A stretch of 62,089 nucleotides of DNA, counting the filler, from Dugesia japonica (Eukaryota): assembly GCA_001938525.1 (NCBI GenBank). It is 6 parts of 6 records of this genome, joined end to end, with 100 filler letters (N's around TTAATTAATTAA, not from the genome) between each part and the next. Parts side by side here need not be neighbours in the genome. Positions count along the whole stretch, not along the records: positions 12,035 to 25,028 come from MQRL01638617.1; 5 more parts are not named here. One strand, given 5' to 3'. This document shows positions 9,201 through 60,081 of the stretch, one piece after another. Both the position numbers and the translations under genes were made by a program. Under the pieces are notes generated by a model that saw only the letters and a list, made by a program, of their open reading frames with translations, did no database searches and was not told where the DNA came from. Every line of letters starts with the position of its first letter. Position 1 is the stretch's first letter.

Positions 9201-10312
9201 TGGTTATGATTAAAGTAAATTTTACTTGCAATTTAGTATTGTAAATTTAAATAAATATTTCATACTGATACTTCTTGAAATTGCATTTTTATCTCCAAGA
9301 TGTCATAAAATATGTTTTAGTAGTCTAAGTATAATTAATTAAATTAGTTATAATATAAATCAATATCTTGATTGGTGATGAATGCCGATTTTGGTGTAAA
9401 CCTCAATTTACGTGTTTAAATTATTAATAATTTTTATGATGAATGATTTTTGAATGACTGATTCGCTTTTGATAATNNNNNNNNNNNNNNNNNNNNNNNN
9501 NNNNNNNTCTTTTGACAAGTTGAAACTTTATAATTAACTTCTTCTGAAACCATTGAATTAATAGTTAGGAAATATGCAATTTATTCTTACGATTGACAAC
9601 TTTGCGACCATTTTTTGTCAAGCGCTATCATTGTTGCTTTACTCGAAACTTTTAATTAATAAAATATCTGCTGGATCTGTCAATAAGACAAGTAAACATT
9701 TGTTGAGTTTACCATGACAAATTTCATTAATTTTCTGTTTACATTATTCTAAGCTTGAAGTTACAACTGTCTTAACTTCTGCTTTGTTTTAATGTGTGTT
9801 TTAATTTATATTTTTTTGGTCTTACTCCTAAAGAACGGCAAAGTCATTCAAAGGTAATAATTTAATAATATAATCTAAAACTGAAACTGCATAAAAAATA
9901 ATAAATAAATTTAGGGAGAAACTGGTTCAATATACTATTGTGGTGTCAAGTATCGGTTGCCAGTATATGCATCAAATGAAAATTTTGAAAATAATATAAG
10001 AATATTTTTATGGGAAAAGGATAATTGGTACAATGATTATAGATGCACCATACCTGTTTCCCGAAACAATATTATAAATGTTTTGAAAGAAGTACGACTT
10101 GCATTGTTTAAAGTAAAGTATTTTGTGGGACAAACTGATTTTCAAATGTCTAAACTTTCAATGCAAGAAGCAATTGAAACTAAAGACAAATATTCTTGGG
10201 TCGGAAATATAGAAAAATGCAATTGTCCATTAGGATTTTCCGGACTCTCTTGTGAAGTAATTTAAACAATTAAATTTAAATATATAATATTTTTTAGAAT
10301 ACAACTGACTGA
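226..10312 (+). CDS. Perlecan/UNC-52-like extracellular matrix protein, multi-exon, 5' end missing. Exons 226-348, 393-692, 3070-3194, 3240-3440, 9125-9214, 9915-10256, possible terminal exon 10298-10312
   Basis: Exons join in frame over GT-AG introns and give LDLa (CIGTHFLCNNNTLIPRSYWCDGEPDCLSMEDETDC), Ig (LTCKMSGRPVPTISW...DHSGVYSC), half laminin-EGF (CLRCYCSNVTDDCTSA), laminin IV/B (LKRYGYPLTYKL...) and IEKCNCPLGFSGLSCE. This is the perlecan domain II-III order. Confidence 0.85.
4190..4400 (-). pseudogene. Small C-terminal fragment of a Polinton-type protein-primed DNA polymerase B (intronic)
   Basis: Minus strand reads EKELMKAKGISLKSTDINHQSYCDC, matching the pPolB KxKG motif context. Confidence 0.45.
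4420..5243 (-). mobile_element. Degenerate mariner transposase (intronic)
   Basis: Minus-strand fragments RFVPQ (WVPH-like), IVFGDKTWIYG, LLHNY.RPH, HSPYSPNLS (YSPDL-like) and C-terminal EYFEGDK, with frameshifts and stops. Confidence 0.8.
5320..5940 (-). mobile_element. Ty3/Gypsy reverse transcriptase remnant (intronic)
   Basis: Minus strand reads GDIRMCVDY...FMSLDLSSEYYQVPIKEEDIQKTAFST*FGQLKFNRMPFGL. Confidence 0.85.
5950..6155. repeat. Degenerate tandem repeat, about 30-nt unit (TGAAATTGCATAGTAGT...)
   Basis: The motif gaaattgcayag recurs several times at regular spacing. Confidence 0.6.
8545..8900. repeat. Degenerate minisatellite (ACCGAGTAAATAATTGACC-like unit)
   Basis: Repeated gagtaaataatt / ggaaatatttg units; spans an N gap. 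Confidence 0.55.
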
Positions 10313-12034: not shown

Positions 12035-12077
12035 TCACTGAATGTGTGCAGAGGTTTACTTCTACTATCTATCTACT

Positions 12078-12253
12078 GTTATTAATTTATCATTACAGTA
12101 GAAAGTATTATTTTTACTAGTAACATTAAAACTAATATTATAACAACTAAAACATAATAACTCCATTTCATAGTTTAAATTTAATTCTATTGAAAATCTT
12201 AAATTAACTTTAAAATCAGATTCTTTACCAACAACTAAAAATTGATGAGACAT
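12078..12253 (-). pseudogene. Minor capsid protein (penton) N-terminus, truncated
   Basis: SDFKVNLRFSIELNLNYEMELLCFSCYNISFNVTSKNNTFY resembles the Polinton penton start (YE.AL....NIT..NN.F.Y); context supports it. Confidence 0.7.
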
Positions 12254-12274
12254 TTTCTTTAGGTAAAGTATTTA

Positions 12275-13088
12275 TTTTTATAAACATTATTTTTTCTTTG
12301 GTAATTAATTCTTGTTTTAATAATTCTTTACAAACAGATTTAATTTCTTGTTCTAAATTATTAAGTCCATCTTTTACAGCTGAAATTAATAATGTTAATC
12401 AGTCAAATAAAGAAACTGGGTCAGAGTTTAAACCTTCATCTTTAATGGGTCCCTTTTGAATTTCTTGTTTTTCTACAGGAAAGGAACCCTTTGGGATTTC
12501 TTTTTCACTATCAACTTTTTCTTTAAGTTTTGGTATTTTTGTTGTTTGCTCTTGATCGTGAGTGGAAGTAGCTTCTTATTTTCTAGTTAATAAATCACGA
12601 TATTTAGAATTAGTAGGAAATGTAATCTTTAATTTTTTTAAATAAATATCAATTGCTTCTGGATCATTACTTCCATTTCCTAAAATTAAATTCATTACTT
12701 TTTTAGAATATGGCATTACTTCTTCTTTAGATAAAAATTATTTTTTTCCATCCTCTTCAATTAAATATATTTCTTTATTAGGATAACTTATCTTTAGAAA
12801 GTTTTTAATATCAATATTTTCTATTTCAAATGTTGGTGTAATTATTGGTGCTAAATTTTTAATATTTAAATTAGTTTCAGGAAAGAATGGTATTCTTTTT
12901 TCAAATGAGTTTGTAGTTATTTTACCTAAATTTTCAATTGCTTTAATAGTAGGTTGTTGTTGACTAGCTAAAGTATCTTGTAAAGTTCTTGATTCAATTA
13001 CATTACCAGTAAATAAATTATAATTATCTTGAGCTTTAATTAAATCTTTCAAAAGTATTATTCTTTCTGTTATTGGTTCACTATCCAT
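12275..13088 (-). pseudogene. Conserved Polinton ORF upstream of penton (frameshifted)
   Basis: N-terminal QQPTIKAIENL and C-terminal SDPVSLFD*LTLLISAVKDGLNNLEQEIKSVCKELLKQELI, similar to the DPxxLxxRLxLL...G....EI..I..EL helix motif common in Polintons. Confidence 0.6.
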
Positions 13089-13089
13089 T

Positions 13090-13616
13090 TTTAAAAGGTT
13101 TTAAATATAAACCATCACCTTTTATTTTAACTTGTACTCCTTTCTTAAAGTTTTTAGTTATCATTTTCAATTCTGAAATATCTAAACTATTTTTTAAATA
13201 TTCATGAATTGAAATTCCTTGATATGGTTTTAAGTAAAGTCCTGAACCCAAAAGGCCCCCAACAGAACTAGTTTTATTTTCTAAATCCTTTTTCTGTAAT
13301 TCAACTAATACAATTTCTTTTTGTTTTTTAATTTTTTCTAGAGCTTGCGCTTGAGCGGACTTTGAATTTCTAACTGTAATAATTTTTTACCAATTGCAGT
13401 TACAGCTGTAGAAGCTAAACCAGCTATAATTGCTGGTATTGCAGTTAGAAAAGCAAATCCACCTTCGTGTTCTTTACCAGTTGCCAGTTTCTCTTTTATT
13501 TCTTCTTTAACTTGTTTACCAATCCAATAGTTTTTACCAATAATTTTTACAGATTTACTTTTATTTGAATTTACTAAATCAATAAATTCTTGTTAATTCT
13601 TATTAACTGAAGACAT
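13090..13616 (-). pseudogene. Virion core / membrane-active precursor protein (pVII-like) of element A
   Basis: KEHEGG|FAFLTAIPAIIAGLASTAVTAIG amphipathic segment after a GG, plus two G(S/D)GLYLKP(Y/F) motifs. Confidence 0.65.
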
Positions 13617-13726: not shown

Positions 13727-15041
13727 TTATAAAACCGTTTTCTGAAGTTCATTATCATAAAATCTACCTAGAATTTTTTCATTCTCCAAATCAGTAATTC
13801 CATAAGTTATTGGTTTTGTTTTATAAACTTNGGTTACAACAAATATTTCATTTGTTCACTAAGCTGTAAAACCTTTTTCAAATTTATATTTATATTTAAA
13901 GATTTTAACTCGATCTCCATTTTAAAATTTTGGTTTAAAACTAAAGTTATCATTTTCATGGTTGTGATTTTCGATTATTTCTTTTATTTTATCTGGATTT
14001 TCATTAGCTTCTTTTGGAGTTGTTTTTATGGAACTATGAATTGTATTATTATAATTATTTAAAATTTTTTGTAATAAATTATTATTCCATTTCTGATTTC
14101 CTGTTAATGTAAAGTATTTCCAGATTTTGTTTTTAGAGTTCTAATAAATCTTTCAGCAAAAACTGATTTACATTTTCAGTATGATACAAATTAATTTCAT
14201 TTTCTTTAAGAAATTTACCACAGTACTTTCATCTAATAGCTGATTCTTTGTCAAACCAGATATAATCAGGAATTTGATTATTTTCTTCAAATATATTTTC
14301 ATAAACATCTTTTACTGATTCTTGGTTTTTATTTTTCATTTGTATACAAAAACCATATCTAGAATATAAATCAATACAAACTAAAATATATCTATAACCA
14401 TCAGTTGATTTTTTAACCATATCTATAATTTCACAACCCCAAGTATTATCTTTTTCTTTTATTATTACTTTTAGAAAATGTTTTGGTTTTCTATAATTTT
14501 TGTGAAGTTCATTTGCTAATGTCTCTATATTTTTAAAATTATTTACTTTATTAGTGGGGATGTAACTCACTTTATTCGTTCCAGCTCCTAAAATAATTTT
14601 ACCTTTCATTGCTAATTTTACTAAACCCTTTTGTATCTTTTCTGAAATACTAGGATTAGGAATATTTTTTAAATCATGAATTAAATTTACATCAGCTAAA
14701 TGTCTATCTCTTAAACCTTCTGACTTGTAAGATAAATCATGTTTAAAAGCTGATTCATCTACTCCATTAATTGGTTCTTCTCCAGGTTTCGGATTATTAT
14801 TTTCATCTAATCTTAAATCCAATCTTGTTCCGGGACCAGTATAGTTATGTTTAAACAAATGTATTTCTTCAGAATATTTTTCCCAAGTAAATGGTTTTAA
14901 AATTGTAGAAGTTAATTTAGAAGATTGAAGATCACCACCACTATTAGTTTGAATATTCTTTAAACAAATTCGCAAATGTCTAGCTTTATTTTTTCTGAGT
15001 AATATTTTCTTACAATTTTCACAAATACATTTATTATCCAT
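13727..15041 (-). pseudogene. C2H2 zinc finger - parvovirus-type phospholipase A2 - rve integrase fusion (open 15041-14229, frameshifted afterwards)
   Basis: CENCKK...ARHLRIC; NYTGPGT Ca-loop, DESAFKHDLSY and RHLAD; LANELHK, YILVCIDLYSRY, IWFDKES, FAERFIRTL, PKFKNGDRVKI, GRFYDNELQK*. Confidence 0.9.
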
Positions 15042-15092: not shown

Positions 15093-15920
15093 TTAAACAT
15101 AACTTTCTCCTCGCTTACTTTCAATCATTACAATTTTACTATTTGATCATTTCATTTTAATATATTTTTCTTCTAAAATACACCAACATAAAGACCCTTT
15201 AAAATCAGATACTTTAGTTATATGTAAAGTTATATATACGGTATTTATATTTAATTTATCATCTTGGAAACTAACATCAAAACAAAAGATAGGGTACAAA
15301 TCCCCAAATTCTTGAAGAAATAATTGTGGTTCTGTTAAAAAGTTTTACAACAATTTACATAATTTAAATATGGAAAAATCATTTCATTATTTTTAATATT
15401 AAATTTACATTCATTTATATGTATTTTTTATTTGTACTTGAATACTTTTAAGATAATGTTTTGTTGTAACTTTTTTTTCTTTTCATTTTCAACAGTTTTA
15501 CTAATTTGTTGAATAAATAAATTATTATTCTTTTGATATGAAATTTCTGAATCTTTTATTTCAATAAATATATATCTTGTTTTATAAGTTAAATTACTCA
15601 GTTTAACTGAATAATAATTTCCAGAATCTAAAGTCGTTTTAGAGGTAACTCTATTTAAAAATGAAACTTCAATAGGTTTATTTGTGTTAATTCTTTCCAA
15701 CAGATTTACTTCCATTTTTGGAACTAATCTACATTCTTGGATGTGTAGTTTTAAAGTCATTAATTTTAAAGTAGCAGTTGTACTTGCGTCCCCATAAAAT
15801 ATTAAATTATCATTCATTTATCTATTACAAGTAAATTCAATCATTGTATTATACAACAATCTCTTGTAACATTGTAAAAAACCAAATAAATTTTTTTAAA
15901 GGAAAATAACCTTCAAATGT
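15093..15920 (-). pseudogene. Major capsid protein (double jelly-roll, hexon-like), C-terminal half
   Basis: Aligns by eye with 39150-40080 (FEGYFPLK, TNKPIEVSFLNR, YIFI, FGDLYPIFCFDVS); YP.F.FD.S is a typical Polinton capsid tail motif. Confidence 0.8.
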
Positions 15921-15935
15921 CTTTTTTGAAATGTC

Positions 15936-16073
15936 TTACAAGTTCAGCCAAATAATACAAATATATGTGGTATCTTATGCCGTTATGTTTTATATATGTG
16001 AAACAATACAGATATTTCTTTTCTCAAAATTATTGATTCTATTTACTCAGATTTAGAAACACTTTTTAAATAA
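15936..16073 (+). pseudogene. Adenain-like cysteine protease, C-terminal fragment
   Basis: LQVQPNNTNICGILCRYVLYM matches the Q-x5-CG-x2-C catalytic cysteine motif of Polinton/adenovirus proteases. Confidence 0.7.
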
Positions 16074-16088
16074 ATAAGTAAAATAAAA

Positions 16089-17613
16089 ATGAGCAATTTT
16101 ATACCTACAAGTAAATCTGGTTTAACTATTCAATCAAGTGATTTTAATTTAGAAGATGTTATTAAACATAATGAAGCTAAATTAGACAAACCTTTAGAAT
16201 ACAAGCTAAATTATAAAATTACTAGCGAGATAAACAATCTTGATAAAGTTTATGTAAATGAAACGGGGGGGGAAATAGAAAGACTAGAAGTTATTCAAGA
16301 ACCTAAAAATGATAATGATGTTGTAAACAACAAATATTTAAAGAAATATATAGATCAAATTAAAAAGGATATAGATTATAAAACAAATTTTAGAATAGAC
16401 TCACTTATTACTAGAGTGAATGAAATAATTAAATCTAGAATAACAAATTTTAAAATTAAATTAGATAAAGAAATTAAAGATTTAACAGATAAAGAAATAA
16501 ATTCTTTAAAGGATACAGCTGAATTAAAAACAAATGACAAAGTTAACCAAGTTACATTTAATTCTTTTAAACAAGATCAATATAAAGAAATGAAATCTTT
16601 AAACGATAGTGTAAAAATGTCGAATTAAAATCAAATTATAAAATAAATCAAGTTGAATTTAATTCTTTTAAAGTGAAAAAGGAAACGGCTTTAAAGAGTC
16701 TTCAAAAAAATTTTAGTAATAAATTAAATAACATTCATCCACGATAACCTTTCTTTAAAAATTTATATATATATACTTTTTAAATTGATTTATTATCAAA
16801 CATTAATAAAATAAAGCATTATGAAAAAGCATATAATTTAAAAATAAGATTTTTGATATCATGTCATTTTCCTTTAGGTTAAGATAATATAAATGATAAT
16901 CTTAATTATGAAGATTTAAGTGATAATAGATTAACTATAAAAAGTAAGCCTGATTTAAAATTATAAAATAAACCAGATGGAAAAACTCTTTTTATTAGTC
17001 GAAATAAATGTTTTTATTTAAATAAAGGAGATCAATTTATTTCTAATTATGAATTTTAAAAAGATTTTGTTTTTATTATTCTGTTTAATAGAGAGAGTTA
17101 TTCAGATTCTTTTATTCAGAATGTGTGTTTATTAGAAGTCATAAAGAGAGTAAAACGATAAGTCAAATTGAAAAAGCATCAAATAACGCCTTAACATATC
17201 CAAATATATTAGGTGAATATGAAGATTATAAAAATTATGTATATTTGGATTATAACAAATTATATAAAGATAAAAAAGATAATTTAACTTTCTTTAGTAC
17301 TCCTAAAACTCATAAAAATTTATTATATATAGAAAAGAATGGAAATCAAATTATTCTTAATCAAAATAATGATAAAAATAAACAAACCATGACTATAAAT
17401 AGAAATTTTGAATTTGGTAAATTCGTTATAGGAGATAAAAATACGAGTAGATTTATTTATGAATATTTATGTTGTGAAAATAGTAGAGGTAAAAAATATA
17501 ACAGTGATATATTTCAACAGTTTTATAATCTTTATCGCATACAAACAAGACTAGCTCGCGATGTTAATAATAAAAATACTAATGAAACAATTATAAAAGC
17601 AAAGTTTTATTAA
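16089..17613 (+). pseudogene. Fibre/spike-like protein of element A (broken into several frames)
   Basis: YVNETGG...EPKNDNDVVNNKYL resembles the P....DA.NK.YV fibre motif, followed by coiled-coil and a beta-rich C-terminal part. Confidence 0.4.
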
Positions 17614-17671
17614 ATTAAAAGAAATAAAATCTTAATTTTATTAAAAGCATAATATCTTAATTTTATGAAAA

Positions 17672-18265
17672 ATGGAGAAAGAATATCATAATATTTATCC
17701 TGATATAAATGAAGTAGATCAATTTAATCTAACTGCATCTTTAGATGATTATAAAAATAAATTAAAAACATTAAGAATTAAAGATTTTGAAAATGATTTA
17801 ACATTCCTAACTGATAAAATAAATCATTATAATAAATTATATAGAAGATGGAAAATGTTTGATACAGGTGTAAGATATACCGATATTTTAATAAGAAGTT
17901 TATTTGGTGCAGCAGGAATAACCATGACCGTTTTAGCTACAAGTGGTATAGTTATTTTGACTTTATCTGTTATTATTCTTGGAACATTTTCTTTAACTAA
18001 TTTTATTGCTCATGATTTATTAAACATTGGTTTAATTAAAAGAAGAAAGAAGAAATATAATGATTTAACTAAAGAATAAGAAACAAGTAAAAATAAATTA
18101 TTTCTTTATCATCAAAAATGTTTACATGATAATATATTAACAGATGAAGAAATAAATACTAGTAAAACTATTGTTAATGAAATCAAAAATAAAATATTAA
18201 AGATTAAAACCGATATTGAAGTTAAAGAGAAAAAGGAAATAGATAAAGATGATACTTTTTATTAA
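17672..18265 (+). pseudogene. Two-transmembrane coiled-coil protein of element A
   Basis: HYNKLYRRWK, then the hydrophobic stretch LFGAAGITMTVLATSGIVILTLSVIILGTFSL, then KRRKKKY; the frame continues past an internal stop (CLHDNILTDEEI). Confidence 0.55.
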
Positions 18266-19014
18266 CAAAGCTAAAGGAAATGGAATCTTTTATAAATCAA
18301 CCTACTCCAAAAGTAAGAAAGAAAATAAATTAGAAAGTAAATTAGAAATAGATTATAATTGGTTAAATTGTATAAAATTGAAAATTAATTATAAAAATTA
18401 AAAATGGAAGAATTTATTGAAGAACTAACTAATACGGAAGAATTTAAAAATGAAATTAAAGACGAATGTGATAAAGTTAAACAGTTATCTATAATTAATA
18501 AAACTGAATTATATTTAGATATTTTTATAAAAAAACCAACAATACATACATTGCATTAAAATAATGTGTGACACCATTTGCTATTTAGACGATGAAAATA
18601 ATAAATATGAATAAGTAATATGAATTGGGAAAAGAAAACGATGAATTGAAAAAAAAATTATAAATATAAAAATTATATAATTACTGTTCAACTTGATCAC
18701 ATTCATCTTTAATTTCATTTTTAAATTCTTCAATAAATTCTTCCATTTTTAATTTTTATAATTAATTTTCAATTTTATACAATTTAACCAATTATAATCN
18801 NNNNNNNNNNNNNNNNNNNNNNNNNNNNNNNNNNNNNNNNNNNNNNNNNTTCAATTTTATACAATTTAACCAATTATAATCTATTTCTAATTTACTTTCT
18901 AATTTATTTTCTTTCTTACTTTTAGAGTAGGTTGATTTATTAAAGATTCCATTTCCTTTAGCTTTGTTAATAAAAAAAGTATTATCTTTATCTCTTTCTT
19001 TTTCCTCTTTAACT
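18220..19014. repeat. Inverted duplication: arms 18220-18485 and 18683-19014
   Basis: The right arm is the reverse complement of the left, with several substitutions and one short indel; the right arm contains an N gap. Confidence 0.85.
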
Positions 19015-23843: not shown

Positions 23844-25022
23844 TCATTTCAAATAAAACTGTGCAGTAATCTTAGATCTTGTTTCTGAATTAAATGAATC
23901 TATTATCTTTTGGAAATAATTCCAAATCCTATCATTCGGTTTATTGTTTGTTCTCAACAAATATTCATTTGCCAATCTTAAGATCCTCTTCAATAAATAC
24001 AGAATATTCAAATTCTTTTTAATTTGAAAACAAGAATGTAATATTTCAATATTGGTTTCTTTTAACAGTATTGTGTTAATGATTTCATCATCGATTTCTA
24101 TTTCTTCTACTGAAATAATTGCTTCTTGCTTGTTTCTAAAATTTTTTATTCCCTCGTTAATTATTTTTCTACCCTTCGCAATACATGTTTTATATTTATC
24201 AATTGTTGATGACTGATTACTGACAATATCATTTTCTGTATATTTATGAGAAACATTTTCATTTTTGTACAAATTTTCAAAACAATTAATAAACAAATGA
24301 CTTCCACTCTCATAATTGGTACTATTGGATAAAACTGCATAACAAATTAAACAAGTATTTCTGTTAATATTTAAATTTGGGAAGTTTGAATATTTCAATA
24401 AAAATTCTTTAAATTTTATTTCTGGACTTGTAAACTTGTAAAAAGAATACAAAATATCGATTCTCCAATTTGATTTTATAAAATCAATAGGATCATATAA
24501 AACGTATTCGTAATATAATAAATAATTATACATTTCATAAATCCTTGAGTTTATATCAAATTTCAAATTTGAATTTTTAGAAATTTTTCTTTTGTATAAT
24601 TCAATAACATCAGAATTCATTTTAACACTTTCAAATGATACAAAATCCGGGGAATTATTTTCAATAATTGATTGGATATTCTGAAAANAAATTTCCTCAT
24701 TTCTTAAATTATTTTCGTACCCGGTCCTCATCTCCCTACATATATATTCATTATTTCGATTTCTTTGCAATTCTAGAATACTTTCAAAATCTGATTTCAT
24801 CAAAATTTCAGGTTGATTATTTAAACCATCATGTCGAGAAATATCAATAATCTCAGTCATATCAAATGGACATTTTTTTAAAGATCTAGAATTTTGAGTT
24901 AAACATGAGCAACAAAATCTATGTTTATCATTACATTGTGTAAAACCAAATAACGGTTCTTCATCCATTGATGAAAAACAAATACTACATTCTTGAATTA
25001 TTTCTTTTTGGTCTACTGACAT
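23844..25022 (-). CDS. Intronless RING-finger (C3HC4-type) protein, putative E3 ligase; start may be cut by the contig end
   Basis: 392-codon ORF with CSIC...C.DKH.FCCSC...CPFD at the N-terminus and a possible degenerate second RING (CLIC...HLFINC). Confidence 0.7.
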   Translation of the reverse strand: MSVDQKEIIQECSICFSSMDEEPLFGFTQCNDKHRFCCSCLTQNSRSLKKCPFDMTEIIDISRHDGLNNQPEILMKSDFESILELQRNRNNEYICREMRTGYENNLRNEEIXFQNIQSIIENNSPDFVSFESVKMNSDVIELYKRKISKNSNLKFDINSRIYEMYNYLLYYEYVLYDPIDFIKSNWRIDILYSFYKFTSPEIKFKEFLLKYSNFPNLNINRNTCLICYAVLSNSTNYESGSHLFINCFENLYKNENVSHKYTENDIVSNQSSTIDKYKTCIAKGRKIINEGIKNFRNKQEAIISVEEIEIDDEIINTILLKETNIEILHSCFQIKKNLNILYLLKRILRLANEYLLRTNNKPNDRIWNYFQKIIDSFNSETRSKITAQFYLK

Positions 25023-25028
25023 TCTGTT

Positions 25029-25128
25029 NNNNNNNNNNNNNNNNNNNNNNNNNNNNNNNNNNNNNNNNNNNNTTAATTAATTAANNNNNNNNNNNNNNNN
25101 NNNNNNNNNNNNNNNNNNNNNNNNNNNN
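25029..25128. other. Artificial contig-joining spacer
   Basis: 44N-TTAATTAATTAA-44N. Confidence 0.95.
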
Positions 25129-32553: not shown

Positions 32554-33252
32554 TTAAAATAACAATGATTTAATATCTTCTGAATAAAAATCGTTTTCTG
32601 GACCATCTTCAATATCGAATCCTAATTTATTATTGACCAATTGTATCTTGATGTCCTTGTATTCAGCAATATTTTTGAATCTCCATTTTTTGACTAATTC
32701 ATAAAGGTTTTCTGAATAATTTGGCATTTTATAAGTCATAACGCTTTTTGCAACATTTGTACACCACCTAAAATATGGCCATTCTTTACTATTAAAATAA
32801 TGTCTATGTCTCATTTCAATATTATTATTTATAAAATCTTCTTCGTCTTTATCAATACTTTTCATTAAATTATCAAATGATAAATCCAAATCATTAAAAC
32901 AATTTTGAACTATTGACCGGGCCACTTTAGATTGCATATAACTATGATTAAAAGGAGTGATTTCATAACCTAGTCCAATCATAAAAAAACTATTGGGAAA
33001 ATAGGGATTAATTAAATGTTTATAAAGAGGTCGAACATAAGTATTGTCATATTTTAATCCAATTTTATCACTAAGAAAACTGAGATCGATTTCATAACCG
33101 GTACAAAATATTATCACATCAACATCATATTTGGATCCATCTGTTAAACAAATTGAACCTTGAAGATCTATATGTGATATTCTGACAGTTTCAATGAAAT
33201 TATTTTTTTCAGTTTTCCACATTAGTTTTGGTCCACTATGTGATAAATACAC
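32554..33252 (-). CDS. Flavin-containing monooxygenase (FMO-like), terminal exon
   Basis: VYLSH...DGSKYDVDVIIFCTGYEIDLSFL...PLYKHLI (FATGY-type motif); tttAG acceptor at 33254-33253; upstream exons are cut by the contig end. Confidence 0.88.
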   Translation of the reverse strand: MYLSHSGPKLMWKTEKNNFIETVRISHIDLQGSICLTDGSKYDVDVIIFCTGYEIDLSFLSDKIGLKYDNTYVRPLYKHLINPYFPNSFFMIGLGYEITPFNHSYMQSKVARSIVQNCFNDLDLSFDNLMKSIDKDEEDFINNNIEMRHRHYFNSKEWPYFRWCTNVAKSVMTYKMPNYSENLYELVKKWRFKNIAEYKDIKIQLVNNKLGFDIEDGPENDFYSEDIKSLLF

Positions 33253-35974: not shown

Positions 35975-36919
35975 AACACGTGTGTGAAGATGACGTTTTG
36001 ACACTCCAATCTTTGCGTCCACTAGGTGTGAATGATGAAAAAATAAAAGCTTTAATTAAGGAGGGTCGACATAGTACAACGCGTGACATTGCATGGAAGC
36101 TAAACGTATCTTATAGCACCATCGAAAGCCGTATCAAGCATATTGGATGCGTTAAGAAACTCGATTTATGGGTTCCTTACCAACTTAAAGAAATTCACTT
36201 AAAACAACGTATTGACATGTGTAGTTTGCTTAGGAAACACAACAACAAATGTTCATTTTTGAAATAAATAGTAACGAACGATGAAAAATAGGTGTCCTAC
36301 AACAATGTCCATAATAAAAGATCATGGTGTAAGTTACGGGAAGCAGCGCAGACATCAGTCAAGGTTCAAAAGTCAAGCATCAAAAGAAAGTTATGCTCTG
36401 CATATGCTGGGATTATCAGGGAATAATCTATTTCGAAATTTTGTCAGGCAGCCAAAAGATAAATTCTGAAATCTAAATTTATCAGTTGACAACATTGAAC
36501 ACGGCAATCCAAGAAAAAAGTCCAAAATTGGCGAACCACCAAGGTGTAGTCTTTCACCATTACAATGCCGAACCATAAACATCTTTGGTCACTAGGAAAA
36601 AATTTTTGAACCTTGGTTGGGACGTATTGCCACATCTAACTTACAGTTCTGATATCGCCCCTTCTGATTACCATTTGTTTCGTTCTATTCAAAACTTCTT
36701 GAGTGGTAAAACGTATACTAATGATAACGATGTCACATCCGACTTGTTGCAATTTTTTGCTGATAAACCCACGAAATTTTATGTACGAGGAAATTCTTTG
36801 CTTCCTGAAAGATAGGAACAATAGACAATTCATTATTTAATAAAAATATATTGTTTCATATTGTTTTAAGACTTTTATTTCTTCAAGAAATCGGCAATTA
36901 CTTTCTTGCCAACTCAATA
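35975..36919 (+). mobile_element. Mariner element, 5'-truncated transposase pseudogene with 3' TIR (about 36888-36917) and TA
   Basis: WVPYQL, IVTNDEK, FHHYNAEP, LPHLTYSSDIAPSDYHLF; TIR AAATCGGCAATTACTTTCTTGCCAACTCAA followed by TA. Confidence 0.92.
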
Positions 36920-38640: not shown

Positions 38641-40082
38641 ATGAACACAGTAATAGACTTAGATAATAATATGGAATTTACTCATACAGCAATAAAAAAT
38701 GATACACTTGTAATTTTCACCATCATCAGGAACAACAAATAAATTAAATGCAAGTGGTGACATTGTATTTCAATCTCTCTAATCTACAAATCCACTTGAT
38801 CCACCTGTAATTCACCTGTAAAAATCCACCTGTAATTCACTTTTATATTTTATAATTGATATAAAATTTTCAGATAAAGATAAAATAACATTAGAAAATA
38901 ACTGGTTTCCAAGTTTATTTAATTCAATAAGATTATTTATAGGTTCATCAGAAGTTGAATCGATAAATGATCCAGGTGTAATATCTACAAAGTTAAATTT
39001 TATAATTACAACTGAAACATGTAAAAAAGAATATGGTCAATTGTCAGGATGGATGCCAGATATAAATAAAGGAGATATTGCAATAAAAGAATGGGATACT
39101 AATATTGGTTATTTTACTAGAAAAGCGGTTTATAACTCAATTAAAGTTGGAGATAATTATAAATTTGAAGGATTCTTTCAATTAAAAAATCTATTTGGTT
39201 TTATGCAAAATTATAATCGACTTTTTTATAACACATCAATAGAACTTAGATGTAACAGACAAATTGAAGATACATTATTATTTTAGGGAGATGCCACAGC
39301 ACAGAACAATTAAATTTATCAACACTTGAATTACATATTCCAGAATATAGATTATTACCAAAAGCAGAATTATTTATGTTAGAAAGTATATCTACAAATA
39401 AACCAATAGACATTTCTTATTTAAATAGAATATGTGGTAAAACAAATTTAGAAGTAGGAACATTTTATTCAATAAAAATTGGAAGCTTAGCATATCAATC
39501 TAGATATATTTTTATTTGTTTTAAAGAAATAGGAAAAAAATTCGGGAATAATAATAATTTATTTATACAAAAAACTACAAAAATTGAAAAACGTGGTGCG
39601 CCACCAGTTGATACACCAAGGTTTACAATTACAATTAAACAATTGTAACTATCCAGCTAATGAATTAAAATTTGATATGTCAGAAAATAGAATGGTACAT
39701 CCTTATTTAAATTATGTAAAATGTTGTCGTGATTTTTTTAATGAACCACAATTATCACTTTTAGATTTTGGAAATCTTTATCCGATGTTTTGTTTTGATA
39801 TAACTGCACATGATGATAAAATGAATATTAATAATGTTGATGTTACACTAAAAATAACAAAGGATAATAATTNNNNNNNNNNNNNNNNNNNNNNNNNNNN
39901 NNNNNNNNNNNNNNNNNNNNNNTATTAATAATGTTGATGTTACACTAAAAATAACAAAGGATAATAATTTTAAAGCAATTATTCATTGGTGTATACCTGA
40001 AGAAAAACATGTTGAGATGAAATTAGCTAATAGTAAAATTGTTATGGTTGAAAATGTTAGAGGTATAGATATGAAATGTTAA
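38641..40082 (+). pseudogene. Major capsid protein, near full length, frameshifted
   Basis: SGDIVFQS, ITLENNWFPSLFNSIRL, LKNLFGF, LHIPEY, YLNYVK, YPMFCFDIT; homologous to the copies at 15093-15920 and 59335-60081. Confidence 0.82.
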
Positions 40083-40178
40083 ATGTTAAATAATCGACTC
40101 ATGCATTAGCCAATATTAAATGTTAAATAAATGTGAAGATTGTGGAAAAATAATTCGATGATATTAAATGTTAAATAA

Positions 40179-41479
40179 ATGTCTAAAAACTTTATATGTG
40201 AAGATTGTGGTAAAATAATTTTAAAGAAAAATAAGTCAAGACATTTAGATTTGTGTATAAACAAATTCAAAGGAGGTGACTTACAAGATTCAAAAGTAAT
40301 ATCAACATTATTAAAACCAATTACTACAGAAAAATATCCAGGTGAAAGACATTTGTTTAAACATAATTACAATGGACCTGGAACAAGATTAGATATTCGA
40401 TTAGATGAGAATTTATAACCAAAAGAAAATGAAGAACCAATTAATAAAGTGGATTGCCTCGCATTAAAACATAACATTGCTTACTCTGGCGCAACCACAG
40501 GACATAATTCAGAAAATATTAGAGATCGACATATTGCAGATGTAAATTTAATGCATGATTTGAATAATATTGAAAATCCTACATCAACAGAAAAATTTCA
40601 AAGAGCTCTTGTAAAATTAGCTATGAAAGGTAAAATCATGATTGATAAAAGTCTTTAAAAAATCAAAGTTACTACTGAAGAATCTGATGATGAGATAACT
40701 TACGGACAAATTTTAGCAGAAGAATTTCATAAAGAATATAGAAAGCTAAAACATTTATTAAGAGTAGAAGTTAGTGATAAAGATGATATTTGGTCTGCAG
40801 ATTTAATATTTCATCAGAAAAATGTAATATAAACAGTTATAGATCTTTATACGCGATATGCTTTTGTTGAACTTCAAAAAAATAAAACTGGACTAGAAAC
40901 AACAAAAGCATTTGAAAGAATTTTAGAAAAAAGTTTTAGAACTCCAAATAAATTATGGACTGATAATGGAATAGAATTTTACAATAAACATTTTAAATCT
41001 TTTGTGAAGAAAATAACATTAAATTATATTCAACTGAAAATCAAGGTAAAGCAGTTGTAATTGAAAGATTTAACAGAACATTTAAAAATAAGCTCTTTAA
41101 ACCTTTTACTGCCTTTGGGAATCAAGATATAAATATTAAGTTATTAGAGAAAATTGGAAATGAATACAATAACACAATACACTCAACAATTAATGTTACA
41201 CCTCAAAATGCTTCAATTAATCCTGAAAGTATTGAAATAGAAATTCCAAAGGATTTTACTGAGAAACTTAGATTTAAAATTGGTGATCGAGATCGAATCT
41301 TTAAAGTTAAAAAATTATTTGCTAAAGGTTATACTTTTAAATGGTCTAAAAGAATTTATATTATTACTAAAATACACAACACAAAACCTTATACTTTTGA
41401 AATCTCAAATCTTAACAGCAACAAAATATTGGGAAGATTTTATACAAATGAATTACAAAAGAGTCACGCTGTGGCCTAA
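40179..41479 (+). pseudogene. C2H2 zinc finger - PLA2 - rve integrase, second copy
   Basis: CEDCGK...SRHLDLC; NYNGPGT; DCLALKHNIAY; RHIAD; WSADL, LWTDNGIEFY, VIERFNRTFK, GRFYTNELQK. Confidence 0.9.
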
Positions 41480-41522: not shown

Positions 41523-42300
41523 ATGCGTAGGGTCTTAAATCGTTTAGAATCTACTATTTCAGATTTGTTTAAAATTGGTGTTCCAAGAGATGAAACATTT
41601 TATATGGAAATTATAGCAAATTTAATGTTAGTTAAAATATTAAACCACGAAGAAAAAGAAGACCAAGAATAATTCCTAAGAAAGAAATTAAAACCACTTC
41701 GGTGGTCGATGGACAAACACAAACACAAATAATAATGATTTGTGAAAGTGAAAGTTCAGAATCTGAAAGTGAAAGTTCAGAATCTGAAAGTGAAAGTTCA
41801 GAATCTGAAATAATATATCCTAGAAATGAAAGTTCAGAATCTGAAAGTGAAAGTGAAACCGCTTCGCTGACCTACGGACAAACACAAATAATAATTCCCT
41901 TAAGTGAAAGTGAAAAATTTAAGCAAGAATTTTTCAAATCTTTCTTACCACTTCCATTTTCTTAAGCATTATTAAAACAAGATAAAATTCATGGAAAATT
42001 AGATAGAAAAGAAATACAGAAAAAATTCATTATTGGGATGATGTAATAATTAAAAGCAAACAAATTGGTTTAATTGGTTATTCTAATTTAGGAAAATTAT
42101 TATTAATACTAAAAACAAAATTTAGAAAAAGTGAAGAATTTAAAAATTATTTGGTTAAAAGAAAAATTTATTATTCAGTAAGACATATAAATAAATTAAT
42201 ACAATTTAGTAAGTTAGTAGATAAGTTTCCAAAAATATTAACTACTAAATTTTCATTTCGTAAGATCACATTAAACTTTAAAAAGATTGATGAAATTATT
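41523..42300 (+). pseudogene. Acidic repeat-containing ORF (21-nt GAAAGTGAAAGTTCAGAATCT tandem units encoding ESESSES)
   Basis: Tandem repeat at 41744-41860 inside a broken frame between the integrase and the ATPase. Confidence 0.5.
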
Positions 42301-42310
42301 GATAAAGAAA

Positions 42311-42618
42311 ATGGCAACTCCTTTTGTCTGGAATAATAATATTACAAATTTTAATAATAAAGTATTACCTAATAATTTTATACTTTTAATGATAGGTTCA
42401 TCAGGTTGTGGTAAAAATGTTTTATTAATGAAAATGTTATTAACTCCAGGATTTTTAGATTACAATGTTTTAATTATTTTTTCAACAACAATCACCCAAT
42501 TTGAAATTCAATTATTATATTTAGGATTTGAAAATGGATTATCCAAAGAAGAAATAATTTTAATGTTTGAAAAACAAAATATAGTACCAAATACTTATAA
42601 TACTCCACATCAAGTTGT
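42311..42618 (+). pseudogene. A32/FtsK-like DNA packaging ATPase, N-terminus
   Basis: LLMIGSSGCGKNVLLMKMLLTPGFLDY contains a Walker A (GKT changed to GKN) in Polinton context. Confidence 0.8.
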
Positions 42619-48369: not shown

Positions 48370-49941
48370 ATGCCTGTGTATAAAGGTTTATATATTATTT
48401 AAATAAAATTAATTTAGACATAAATTCTAGTAAACATAAAATGGCAAAAAGAAAAGTTTAATGATATTGAGTGTGATACAGATCAACCACCAGAAATTTT
48501 TAAAGCACTCATATTTTCTCTATCAGGTGTTACTCCCGATAGACAAAAAGTTATGATGCCTGGTGGGACACTTAAAGATTCATGGAATGGAATCAGATTA
48601 AAAGATGGAATTACAATCATGATGATGGGAACATGTGATGAATTGTCAGTTGGTGAAATAAATAAACCGAAATTTATTGAAGATATGACAGAAAGTCAAA
48701 TCACTAAAGCTCTCAAATTACCACAAGGTTTAAAAAATATTGGCAATACTTGTTATTTGAATGCGACTATTCAGTGCTTGCGAACAATTCCAGAATTGTA
48801 CAAAGCCATTAAAAATTCACCAAAAACCAATGATTCAGATCCTAATTCACGTTTTGTTTTAAGTTTAGGAAAATTAATCCTCAGTATGGAAACTGCTGAA
48901 GTTCCAATTGCTCCAATTATTCCATTAAAGCATCTTCATGAAATGTGCCCACAATTTGCAACTACTCAACTTGCTTCACCAGAACAAGGTGGTGGATCAG
49001 TTCTCATGCAACAAGATGCTAATGAATGCTGGGCAGAAATTGTCCGCTCATTACAGAAAGCAGTCTACATTCCACCAAATGTAGATTTATCTGATTTACC
49101 CGAGTCCTTTGGGTCTAACGGGAATTTGAATTTCATTGATCAATTTCTCACAGGAAAGTTTGACGTTAAAACAATAAACACGGAAAAAGAAGAAGACAAT
49201 CAAATGACTCAGGAATCTTTTCTTCAGCTGAGTTGTTTTATAGATAAAGATGTTAAATATCTTCAAACCGGCATCAGAAATGGACTTGAGACAAATTTAA
49301 CTAAATTTTCAGAATCTCTTTCTCGCGATGCTCTTTATAAACGCTCTTCAAAAATTTCCAGGTTACCTGCTTATTTATCAGTGCAATTTGTGAGGTTTTA
49401 CTATAAAGAAAAAGAAAGAATCAACGCAAAAGTTTTGAAGGATATTAAATTCTCNATTGTATTGGANATGTATGAATTTTGTACTGATGAATTGAAAAGT
49501 AAAATGCAACCAATGCGTGATAAATATAAAATTATGGAAGATAGAAAAGCTGAAACAGAAAGAATTAATAAAAAGGCTGAAAATCCGGTTGATAATGCTA
49601 AATTGAAAGAATCAAAACCTGAACATTATCCTTATTGGTTTTCTGATGATATCGGATCAAATAATTGCGGATTATATGAATTGCAAGCTATTGTAACCCA
49701 TCAAGGCCGGTCTAGTAGCAGTGGGCATTATGTTGGTTGGGTCCGGCAATCTGGAGATCTTTGGCTGAAATACGATGATGATTCGGTGGCACAAGTCACG
49801 TCTGAGGATATATTACGTTTATCTGGAGGTGGTGATTGGCATTGTGCTTACGTATTGTTGTATGGGCCGAAATTAATAGAAAAAGAAGAATTTAAAGATA
49901 ATGGAGATCAAGCTGTCGGTCAGCAAATGGATATTAGTTAA
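48370..49941 (+). CDS. USP14: Ubiquitin carboxyl-terminal hydrolase 14 (exons 48370-48385 and 48431-49941; 508 aa)
   Basis: MPVYKVNIKWQKEKF UBL start over a 45-bp GT-AG intron; Cys box GLKNIGNTCYLNATIQCL; QQDANECW; His box THQGRSSSSGHYVGW; LSGGGDWHCAYVLLY; AATAAA at 49961. Confidence 0.97.
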
Positions 49942-58059: not shown

Positions 58060-59130
58060 TCCGAATTTACCTCCAATTATAAGAAGAAATAGGATAAATG
58101 GAATTAGTGGATTCACTCCTCGTTTAAATTGACAAGAAGTAGGAAGATATAATCGAGAAAAACTGGAGATTAATAGATTAAATACAATAAATGTTCTCCC
58201 ATATTATTTTTAAGAAAGTATATTTCATGGTTTATTTTTAACTGAAAATATAAATATTTATTTATTCCGTTTTATAAATACGATCAGAGATAATACAGAA
58301 CACTGTCCTTACAAAAAATTCAATTCTATAATCTCTTGAACCGTTTACATGAAAAGAGATGGTCTATTAATTAATCTAGAGTTAGAAAATAGAAATACTT
58401 TAGAACAAGATATATTAATCCAGTCTCATCTTTTAATTTGTTTTAATAATAGTAGAAATAATTATGAAGAAATGTATATAAGTCTAAATAATGTTTTCAA
58501 CGATAAGATGAACAGTTTACAAGGAATCAATTGAAGAATAATAGGTTTTTAAGAACTTTTATTTGAATTCATTAGAGTTAAATTTTGACGTGGAGGACAT
58601 TTTTTTAATTTCAATCAATAAATGATAACCGACCGAAATTTTAGTGAAATTTAGCTTCTTGTTATTCACACAAAAATATTTAAAAAAAACAACTCAATAC
58701 TGAAACATTCACAATATTTAAATAACTTCTTTTCTTTATTAAATTAACTTGCTAATTTTTCAAATTAAGACGTTCTTATTTCTTTCTTTCTTTCACAAAC
58801 ACCATTTGGATCTATCTCAATTATAAATATTAAAACAAAAGATAATTTCTGCGTATATTGGCATATAATTGCGTATTTATTTCCTCAACCGGATGATTCA
58901 CATCATAAAAGCGACTTTAAATATTATGCAAAATATTTAAAAGCAGTAAATCTTGCTGTATTAATGAAAAATGGTATAGATTTAAATCAAGTAACGAAGA
59001 CGGGTTTTCCGATAAATAAGATTAACATTCTGGAAACATTATTCAACATTTCAATAAATGTTCTTGAATTAGACCGTGTTAATTTTAACCGCTTGAACAT
59101 AATATAGCACTCCGAAAAAATATATATCAT
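58060..59130 (+). pseudogene. N-terminal region of a Polinton pPolB
   Basis: SINIKTKDNFCVYWHIIAYLFP...FKYYAKYL and LFNISINVL match the IN.KN.D..CF.W..A...P / NISINV region of Polinton polymerases. Confidence 0.65.
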
Positions 59131-59334
59131 CTCCGCTGCACATTTCTAATTATAAAATAAAAACTAAAAGGTTTCGAATGTGAGGTTTTAAATAATTTTC
59201 ACAATCAATACAATTATTTTCTGAATTAAAAATATATATCTAGGTCTATAAGCCAAATTTACTAATTAAAAAGAATAGATTGATCCTTCACCCATATCAA
59301 TAACAGAACAAATTCCATTTAAATAATTTGCGTA

Positions 59335-60081
59335 AATTGATTTATTTGAATTTAGTCTTTCTAATAAGTTTACTTTAGATCTTGGATTTAGCGTTCACTC
59401 AGGTATATGTAATTCTATTGTTCTTAGCTTTAATGTAGCTGTTAATGCTGCTGCTCCAAAAAAGAGTAATTTATCTTCTACTTGTATAATGCATATTAAT
59501 TCGATAAATACATTATGTATAACACTATCATAATTCTGTAAAACGCTGAATAAATATTTTTAATCAAAATGTCCTTCAAATTTCATTGCGACATTATATA
59601 ATAATTTTCTTTTATAATAACCTTTATTCATATCTTTCCATGTAACGTCGTTAGTTTCTGTACTGTCATCAGGGATCCAACCAGTCATTTCTCTGTATTC
59701 TTTTTCATAATCAGAATCAGTTAAAATACAGTTTAACATAGATGAATAAACTACTGGATTTTAAATAGATTCTACTTCTGTTGAACCTCATTTCAATTTT
59801 ATGTTACCAAATAAATTAAGAAAGAAATTATTTTCTAAAGTTATATCATCATAAGATGTAGAAGGTTCTATTTTAATTTTATAATATAATCTAGCGTTAC
59901 AAATATCTAAAGGATTTGATGATTGTAAGGATTGAAAAACTATGTCACCTGATTTATTGAAATTAGAAATAGAACCGGATGTTAGAGAAATCTTTAATAN
60001 GTNATTTTTCTTAATCTCGTGTTTAAATTCTTTATTATAATTCAAGTTGAGTTTTGATTTTTGTTCGGAATTCATTGCCAT
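59335..60081 (-). pseudogene. Major capsid protein, N-terminal half (element C)
   Basis: NKSGDIVFQSLQSSNPLD, ITLENNFF, GSTEVESI, GWIPD, KFEGHF, TATLKLRTIELHIPE; homologous to 38641-39420. Confidence 0.82.

What the first reader, a model, noticed from the sequence alone, without database searches (positions are those of the whole stretch)
13727..15041. Zinc finger-phospholipase A2-integrase fusion without a chromodomain, directly behind the capsid gene
Seen: one uninterrupted frame (15041-14229) runs from a C2H2-type finger through a parvovirus VP1-type PLA2 (YTGPG loop, DxxAxxHDxxY, RxxAD) into the rve integrase core. The integrase stops right after GRFYxxELQK, so the C-terminal chromodomain common in Polinton integrases is missing. 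A diverged second element (40179-41479) has the same domain order, the same position behind the capsid gene and the same early stop; its PLA2-integrase junction is frameshifted. Possible maturation-protease sites flank the PLA2: GG|D after the finger in both copies, and ILGA|G, which fits the adenain (M/I/L)xGx|G consensus, before the integrase in copy A. Known: parvovirus PLA2 mediates endosomal escape, and PLA2 domains are reported in adintoviruses. Inference: a virion-packaged polyprotein that links membrane breaching to integration, with the finger possibly replacing the chromodomain for targeting. I cannot tell whether this exact architecture is already described.
Basis: partly seen in the sequence, partly recalled or inferred. 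Interest (0 to 1): 0.82.

Follow-up and report, generated by a model that had tools for sequence, protein, structure and literature searches.

The report
Polinton phospholipase–integrase fusion protein
A decayed virus-like element in an animal genome has its membrane-cutting enzyme and its DNA-inserting enzyme written as one protein with likely protease cut sites, a layout found in many related elements that suggests how these elements carry their integrase into a new cell.

Summary
The fusion is real. One frame joins a zinc finger, a parvovirus-type PLA2 and an rve integrase in a decayed Polinton/Maverick. It is common: 16 of 60 homologs and 34 of the 150 best cluster representatives carry both domains, with catalytic residues kept. 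Glycine motifs mark both PLA2 borders: 45 of 52 at the junction against 0.6% background, and 20 of 23 long leaders. They fit the GG|X and GX|G rule shown for the mavirus protease, not the stricter adenain rule (10 of 45). Corrections: copy B's junction has an in-frame stop, not a frameshift. The window's fingers are C2HC. The finger does not replace the chromodomain: 22 of 28 chromodomain-less fusions have no finger, 5 fusions keep a chromodomain, and the finger lies outside both putative cuts. Fused integrases do not form one clade, and one protein has the reverse order. Best reading: a virion-packaged, protease-processed polyprotein. Cleavage, packaging and activity are inferred; no protease gene was found in the window. 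I found no description in print, but automatic database labels already show the architecture.

The parts
14229..15041 (-). Copy A: uninterrupted frame, finger leader + PLA2 + linker + first half of the rve integrase, ending in a premature stop
14964..15023 (-). C2HC zinc finger (C-x2-C-x11-H-x3-C) in the 36-residue leader
   Evidence: sequence; pattern scan; no Pfam finger hit in copy A
14931..14939 (-). GG|D motif at the leader/PLA2 border; putative protease site 1
   Evidence: 20 of 23 leaders over 15 aa carry GG or GxG here, background 17 of 524 windows; cleavage inferred
14589..14933 (-). Parvovirus-type PLA2 domain (calcium loop at 14843, HDxxY at 14741)
   Evidence: PF08398 E 8e-9; model pLDDT 85; top structural match rice secreted PLA2, Z 7.5, rmsd 3.9, 96 aligned
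14580..14588 (-). GxG motif at the end of the last PLA2 helix; putative protease site 2 or helix cap
   Evidence: 45 of 52 fusions, background 72 of 11441 windows; helix end in the model
13727..14519 (-). Polinton rve integrase with its C-terminal domain and no chromodomain; broken in copy A by stops, two frame changes and an altered first catalytic position
   Evidence: the model of an intact homolog matches foamy-virus and RSV integrases
15093..15918 (-). Broken, 5'-truncated double-jelly-roll major capsid gene directly upstream in copy A
   Evidence: PF21738 E 0.002; 67% DNA identity to the copy B capsid region
13081..13592 (-). Two overlapping frames directly downstream of the integrase, with GG|F and a hydrophobic stretch; possibly a separate pX-like core protein
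   Evidence: weak lead only: Atlas rank 18, score 0.84, Adeno_PX on 20% of members; no support from Pfam, PDB or homolog search
40179..41479 (+). Copy B of the fusion gene; in-frame stops at 40416, 40656 and 40830, frameshift near 41000; same early end
38703..40082 (+). Broken major capsid gene upstream of copy B, spanning an assembly gap
   Evidence: PF21738 E 0.0016 and 0.0002
42275..42613 (+). Start of a P-loop protein, probably the packaging ATPase of copy B, cut by a scaffold gap
   Evidence: Walker A in the sequence; Pox_A32 only at E 0.071

Best explanation
Copies A and B are dead Polinton/Maverick elements of a lineage in which the neighbouring PLA2 and integrase genes form one gene (shown). 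In active relatives both enzymes are probably functional (inferred from conserved catalytic residues). The product is most likely a precursor packed into the capsid and cut by the element's maturation protease at GG|X before the PLA2 and GX|G after it (inferred). This would release a variable leader with the finger, a PLA2 that helps the particle cross a membrane during entry, and a full-length integrase that travels with the genome. The fusion would load the two enzymes together at a fixed 1:1 ratio. It could arise easily because the glycine motif already ends many stand-alone Polinton PLA2 proteins. The finger is an optional leader part, at most a packaging or nucleic-acid-binding aid, and not a targeting domain of the mature integrase.
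For: Fusion in 16 of 60 homologs, 34 of 150 representatives (16 of the 24 scanned confirmed for both domains by Pfam) and three Atlas clusters of 184, 111 and 72 members (scores under 0.9, so leads). Among 52 fusions the PLA2 His, Asp, Tyr and second Asp are present in 48, 48, 49 and 51, most misses being gaps; the integrase acidic triad in 51, 47 and 43. Between copies A and B the PLA2 is the best-kept part (69% identity against 40% for the integrase half and 12% for the linker). Junction motif in 45 of 52. At the front border, long leaders carry GG/GxG (20 of 23) and 14 of 52 proteins start within 5 residues of the same point, as if that point were the mature N-terminus. Linkers run from 5 to 222 residues and the model shows separate domains with low-confidence links (pTM 0.42). 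The mavirus protease cuts GG|X and GX|G, and its virions hold the integrase and a predicted hydrolase in two fragments around GK|G (PMC6048507, passages). Packaging of Polinton lipases was proposed in PMC4642659 (passage).
Against: No protease or polymerase gene was found in the window by motif scan or Pfam; both copies run into gaps or rearrangements. The junction motif sits at the end of a long helix, where glycine is a usual cap. 7 of 52 fusions have only one glycine there. The motif also ends stand-alone PLA2 proteins that have only a short tail to remove (P0050, P0054, P0055, P0059). Only 10 of 45 sites meet the adenoviral P4 rule. The 52 proteins are not independent. The endosome-rupture role of parvoviral PLA2 is itself disputed for B19 (PMC11311400, start of abstract in listing). 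No genomic context could be fetched for any homolog.
Confidence: 0.6

Rival explanations
1. The protein works uncut, or is cut only at the leader. PLA2 stays tethered to the integrase-DNA complex, and the junction glycines are a helix cap that gives the linker freedom.
For: The invariant glycine lies at the end of the last helix; 7 of 52 fusions lack the second glycine; the motif is kept in stand-alone PLA2 proteins; some linkers are only 5-10 residues long.
Against: A cap needs one glycine, yet 45 of 52 keep two. The same motif type recurs at the front border, which is disordered in the model, and in the reversed fusion P0137 a GxG lies between chromodomain and PLA2.
Confidence: 0.2
2. The fusion is a tolerated accident. 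Adjacent genes lose the stop between them, an existing cut site makes this harmless, and it gives no advantage. This differs from the best explanation in purpose, not in chemistry.
For: The fused state is patchy: 13 changes on a 66-row tree, at least 6 forced by strong branches; one clade is rejected. Integrase and PLA2 genes appear adjacent in unfused Spodoptera Mavericks (order read from Table 2 and the CAP passage of PMC5803895).
Against: A clade of 15 fused rows (SH-aLRT 97) kept the fusion across deep divergence; PLA2 and integrase distances track each other across 30 fusions (Mantel r 0.64, p 0.0005, which shared ancestry alone could also give); fusion also occurred in the reverse order (P0137).
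Confidence: 0.3
3. One reading: the N-terminal finger replaced the chromodomain as the integration-targeting domain.
For: All 6 complete finger-bearing fusions lack a chromodomain; 17 of 22 complete fused representatives lack it against 25-33 of 115 unfused.
Against: 22 of 28 chromodomain-less fusions have no finger, though some may be N-terminally incomplete; 6 of 28 against 0 of 5 is no usable contrast. The finger rows are nested in a clade without chromodomains. P0080 has a different finger (DUF5679) and a chromodomain-like tail together. The finger is separated from the integrase by two glycine motifs.
Confidence: 0.05
4. The joined frame is an accident of decay or assembly in this window.
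For: Both copies are broken, and copy B has a stop at the junction.
Against: Dozens of intact fused proteins exist; Lottia gigantea gene models P0033 and P0057 show the same junction; copy B's junction has the same length as copy A's and the stop is one of three in that frame.
Confidence: 0.01

Closest known systems
Alpha adintovirus PLA2X (Starrett et al. 2021, PMC8502044; passages, section 3.2, readable part of the supplement)
   Same: Parvovirus-type PLA2 in an animal Polinton, proposed to act in entry.
   Different: PLA2X is its own gene with a C-terminal pX-like domain, and the integrase is a separate gene with a chromodomain. Here the integrase follows the PLA2 in one frame, has no chromodomain, and a possible pX-like frame lies downstream (weak lead).
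Spodoptera Maverick CAP and INT (PMC5803895; passages)
   Same: PLA2 protein with conserved catalytic residues, listed next to the integrase gene.
   Different: Two separate genes; the integrase has a chromodomain.
Mavirus MV02 integrase, MV13 hydrolase and protease MVP (PMC6048507; passages)
   Same: Integrase and a predicted lipase-like protein are in the virion; the protease cuts GG|X and GX|G.
   Different: MV13 is an alpha/beta hydrolase, not a PLA2, and is not fused to the integrase; mavirus is a virophage of protists.
Parvovirus VP1-unique PLA2 (PMC7765992; one passage)
   Same: HDXXY catalytic motif and GXG calcium loop.
   Different: Fused to the capsid protein in parvoviruses; here fused to an integrase, next to a separate capsid gene.
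Retroviral Gag-Pol (recalled, no call)
   Same: Works like it: an integrase delivered as part of a precursor and freed by a viral protease (inferred here).
   Different: DNA element, cysteine protease, no Gag or reverse transcriptase; the partner is a phospholipase. An analogy, not membership.

Membership tests
Polinton/Maverick (adintovirus) | rve-family integrase | tested here: met
   Pfam rve in both copies; intact homologs above cut-off; fold match to retroviral and MELD-virus integrases
Polinton/Maverick (adintovirus) | Double-jelly-roll major capsid gene | tested here: met
   PF21738 on three pieces at E 0.002 to 0.0002, below the curated cut-off because the genes are fragmented; the copies match each other
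Polinton/Maverick (adintovirus) | Packaging ATPase | tested here: inconclusive
   P-loop fragment at 42275, Pox_A32 E 0.071, cut by a gap
Polinton/Maverick (adintovirus) | Protein-primed polymerase B | tested here: inconclusive
   No motif or Pfam hit; elements are cut by gaps; frame 58769-59104 resembles a polymerase N-terminal region by recall only
Polinton/Maverick (adintovirus) | Adenain-like cysteine protease | tested here: inconclusive
   No hit to recalled motifs in six frames or in the frames sent to Pfam; elements are incomplete
Polinton/Maverick (adintovirus) | Terminal inverted repeats and target-site duplication | tested here: inconclusive
   No pair of long inverted repeats bounds either copy; ends lie beyond gaps or are lost
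Adintovirus integrase as described (10.1101/2024.03.25.586562, passage) | C-terminal chromodomain | tested here: not met
   Stop four codons after ELQK in copy A and five in copy B; the same end in intact relatives
PLA2X | Parvovirus-type PLA2 domain with GXG loop and HDXXY | tested here: met
   motif definition from PMC7765992. Copy B's motif is decayed.
PLA2X | C-terminal pX-like domain in the same protein | tested here: not met
   The integrase follows the PLA2 instead
Adenovirus protease substrate | (M/I/L/N/Q) at P4 of GG|X or GX|G | tested here: not met
   10 of 45 junction sites; copy A's junction fits, the family does not
Virophage-type protease substrate | GG|X or GX|G at domain borders | tested here: met
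   45 of 52 and 20 of 23; rule from PMC6048507
Virophage-type protease substrate | Actual cleavage and presence in particles | not testable with these tools
   needs bench work
C2H2 zinc finger | Two cysteines and two histidines as ligands | tested here: not met
   Window copies are C2HC; 7 homologs are C2H2 with H-x5-H, one with a zf-U1 hit at E 7e-4, below cut-off

The most novel reading that the evidence does not exclude
Polintons have repeatedly, and in both orders, turned their entry phospholipase into the carrier that loads the integrase into the capsid: a Gag-Pol-like strategy in a DNA virus group whose particles have not been observed. The conserved cut sites would then be sequence evidence that these elements mature as virions and deliver a pre-made integrase.
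Probability: 0.35. Interest if true: 0.75.

Novelty: new variant of a known kind. Interest (0 to 1): 0.56.

Why it matters
Polinton virions have not been observed (10.64898/2026.06.19.733378, passage), and how the integrase reaches a new cell is open. A gene that joins a presumed virion enzyme to the integrase, with glycine motifs at both borders, predicts that the integrase is packaged and names specific substrates and sites for the Polinton protease. It also shows that the chromodomain, described as distinctive for these integrases, is missing in many of them, so targeting must differ between lineages. The parts are all known; the recurrent fusion and its cut-site pattern are what seems new.

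Tried and rejected
A search for much longer fused forms (812-2315 aa) gave 1 hit among 555 candidates, a Lottia gene model without rve; lengths 474-811 were covered only by the representative search. A search for a PLA2X-type protein containing the downstream frame 13084-13386 gave 0 hits among 548 candidates of 178-2000 aa; the PDB sequence search of 13341-13592 gave nothing relevant. So the idea that the integrase sits between the two halves of a PLA2X gene stays unsupported. The PDB sequence search with the fused frame found no relative. Foldseek of the PLA2 model had no match at E 0.001, though rice and bacterial secreted PLA2s took the top seven ranks. A first regex count of chromodomains missed diverged ones and was replaced by a profile count. 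Uncorrected pN/pS between copies A and B (0.43 PLA2, 0.95 integrase half) is weak because both copies are decayed and AT-rich; it is not used as proof of selection. The second glycine of the calcium loop was misaligned and is not counted. Sources and hosts of the unnamed homologs could not be looked up (one search gave no answer), and no DNA around any homolog was seen; viral and metagenome contig collections stayed unchecked. The bacterial and archaeal genome scan was not used, as the element is eukaryotic. No complex prediction was run.

Full report
Setting. The window is AT-rich eukaryotic scaffold DNA with many gaps. It carries host genes, among them a ubiquitin hydrolase and a laminin-like exon (E 0.0013), which points to an animal. 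It holds remnants of three related capsid genes (15093-15918, 38703-40082 and 59227 to about 60050). Two are followed directly by the gene in question.

Observation. The frame 15041-14229 is open for 270 codons, against 91-133 in 20 shuffles. It carries PF08398 above cut-off and the first two thirds of the rve profile. The rest of the integrase follows in broken pieces to a stop at 13727-13729. Copy B has the same layout at 48% identity. Copy B's junction is in frame, with a stop at 40656 and a frameshift only near 41000. The fingers in the window are C2HC. Copy A also has an altered first catalytic position. Both copies are dead.

The fusion is a family trait. Of 60 homologs, 16 carry both Pfam domains in one protein. 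The full-length ones end at the same C-terminal motif as the window copies. A profile search of 1.84 billion representatives listed the best 150; 34 of them carry both a PLA2 and an integrase by local profiles, 33 in the order PLA2-integrase and one (P0137) as integrase-chromodomain-PLA2. Pfam confirmed both domains in 16 of the 24 representatives sent; 10 of the 34 were not sent. Because the profile favours fusions and only 150 of 3403 strong hits were listed, 34 of 150 is not a frequency. The Atlas lists three clusters with both domains, two of them mostly with a chromodomain, and labels them mainly viral (scores 0.82-0.85, leads only). Lottia gigantea gene models P0033 and P0057 show the junction in a named mollusc.

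Both enzymes look maintained. I pooled 54 PLA2-integrase proteins and dropped two with deleted junctions. In the 52 left, the PLA2 His, Asp, Tyr and second Asp were present in 48, 48, 49 and 51, and the integrase triad in 51, 47 and 43, most misses being gaps in fragments. The motifs match the parvoviral definition (PMC7765992, one passage). A model of copy A's PLA2 is confident (pLDDT 85) and its best structural match is rice secreted PLA2 (Z 7.5, rmsd 3.9, 96 aligned, next row 5.8), a modest score. A model of an intact homolog shows separate domains without a fixed arrangement (pTM 0.42) and matches retroviral integrases.

Glycine motifs. At the junction, 45 of 52 have GG or GxG within a 10-residue window, against 72 of 11441 windows in the integrase part and 46 of 743 in the rest of the linker. 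At the front border, 24 of 32 proteins with a leader over 5 residues have the motif, and 20 of 23 with a leader over 15; the background is 17 of 524. Another 14 start within 5 residues of that border (two of them poorly aligned) and 6 start beyond it. Only 10 of 45 junction sites have the adenoviral P4 residue. The mavirus protease cuts GG|X and GX|G, and mavirus virions hold the integrase and a predicted hydrolase in two fragments around GK|G (PMC6048507, passages). Against cleavage: the junction motif closes a long helix; it also ends stand-alone PLA2 proteins P0050, P0054, P0055 and P0059, while P0042 and P0058 have one glycine; 7 of 52 fusions lack it; the rows are related; and no protease gene was found in the window.

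Finger and chromodomain. Among complete proteins, 5 of 33 PLA2-integrase fusions keep a chromodomain (4 confirmed by Pfam, P0080 by the local profile only) and 28 end early; 82 of 115 unfused integrases have one, 25 end early and 8 have a long tail without a hit. Only 6 of the 28 early-ending fusions have a finger, and these 6 lie within a supported clade of 15 chromodomain-less fusions. P0017 and P0080 carry a different finger, DUF5679. The leader is therefore an exchangeable part, and the replacement idea is not supported.

History. On an integrase tree of 34 fused and 32 unfused rows the fused label needs 13 changes, at least 6 forced by strong branches, against a shuffled mean of 22.4. An AU test rejects one clade for the 33 PLA2-first fusions (p 9e-63, LG+G4). 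Caveats: I chose the 32 unfused rows from 115 after seeing a first tree, favouring neighbours of fused rows; I left out 7 obvious N-terminal fragments; other 'unfused' rows may also be fragments; and the count cannot tell repeated fusion from repeated fission. The reversed protein P0137 must be a separate event if its gene call is right. PLA2 and integrase distances correlate across 30 fusions (r 0.64).

Mechanism. Shown: one gene, two conserved catalytic domains, glycine motifs at both borders, an optional finger, optional chromodomain. Inferred from mavirus and parvovirus work: packaging, cleavage by the element's protease, a role of the PLA2 in entry. Inferred without direct support: that the fusion serves to load the integrase. 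I put 0.6 on the processed polyprotein, 0.2 on an uncut tethered protein and 0.05 on finger targeting. A purposeless but tolerated fusion (0.3) is compatible with processing.

What is known. Stand-alone Polinton PLA2 genes and their proposed role in entry are described (PMC8502044: passages, section 3.2 and supplement part 1; PMC4642659, PMC3671162, PMC5803895, PMC11296320, PMC7805220 and 10.64898/2026.06.19.733378: passages). Passages of PMC11161782, PMC4028283, PMC11131425 and 10.1101/2024.03.25.586562 were also searched. None of the passages seen mentions a PLA2-integrase fusion, and seven searches aimed at it listed no paper on it. Limits: no paper was read whole; the slide files of the PMC8502044 supplement were unreadable and the archive was cut; bioRxiv supplements, Repbase and subscription journals were not available. 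Automatic database names already show the domain pair, so the architecture is recorded but, as far as I could search, not discussed.

Verdict. A real, widespread and probably recurrent variant of the Polinton gene set, with a testable processing model. Interest 0.56.

Noticed in passing
window 59227-60050 (-): Third Polinton capsid-gene remnant (46% identity to copy B, E 1e-33), cut at its 3' end, with no PLA2 or integrase beside it.
   Followed up: partly
window 58769-59104 (+): Frame facing the third capsid remnant that resembles the N-terminal region of Polinton polymerases by recall only; no Pfam hit.
   Followed up: partly
protein P0137: Reverse fusion integrase-chromodomain-PLA2, with a GxG between chromodomain and PLA2; all three domains above Pfam cut-off.
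   Followed up: partly
window 12065-12271 (-): Frame cut by a scaffold gap that resembles the start of a Polinton minor capsid protein by recall only; no Pfam hit.
   Followed up: no
window 15918-18560: Copy A's capsid gene lacks its 5' part; several opposite-strand frames without family hits (16074-16628, 17092-17613, 17669-18079) stand in its place.
   Followed up: no
window about 40140-40178 (+): Short partial duplication of the finger start just before copy B's start codon.
   Followed up: no
window 18256-18382 and 18850-18976: 98% complementary inverted arms next to an assembly gap; probably an assembly artefact.
   Followed up: no
window 48424-49941 (+), 23844-25076 (-), 32554-33252 (-), 9915-10265 (+): Host genes or exons: ubiquitin-like domain plus UCH hydrolase in one long frame, a RING protein, an FMO-like oxidoreductase, a laminin B/EGF exon.
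   Followed up: no
window 35977-36815 (+): Decayed Tc1/mariner-type transposase remnant (HTH_Tnp_Tc3_2, E 1e-4).
   Followed up: no
window 11935, 25029, 33278, 42619, 51672: Scaffold gaps of 44 N, a 12-base AT spacer and 44 N; they cut both elements, so linkage across them is uncertain.
   Followed up: no
Atlas rank 4 and P0159: Integrases with an N-terminal DUF5679 or four-cysteine finger and no PLA2 exist, so finger leaders also occur on unfused integrases.
   Followed up: no
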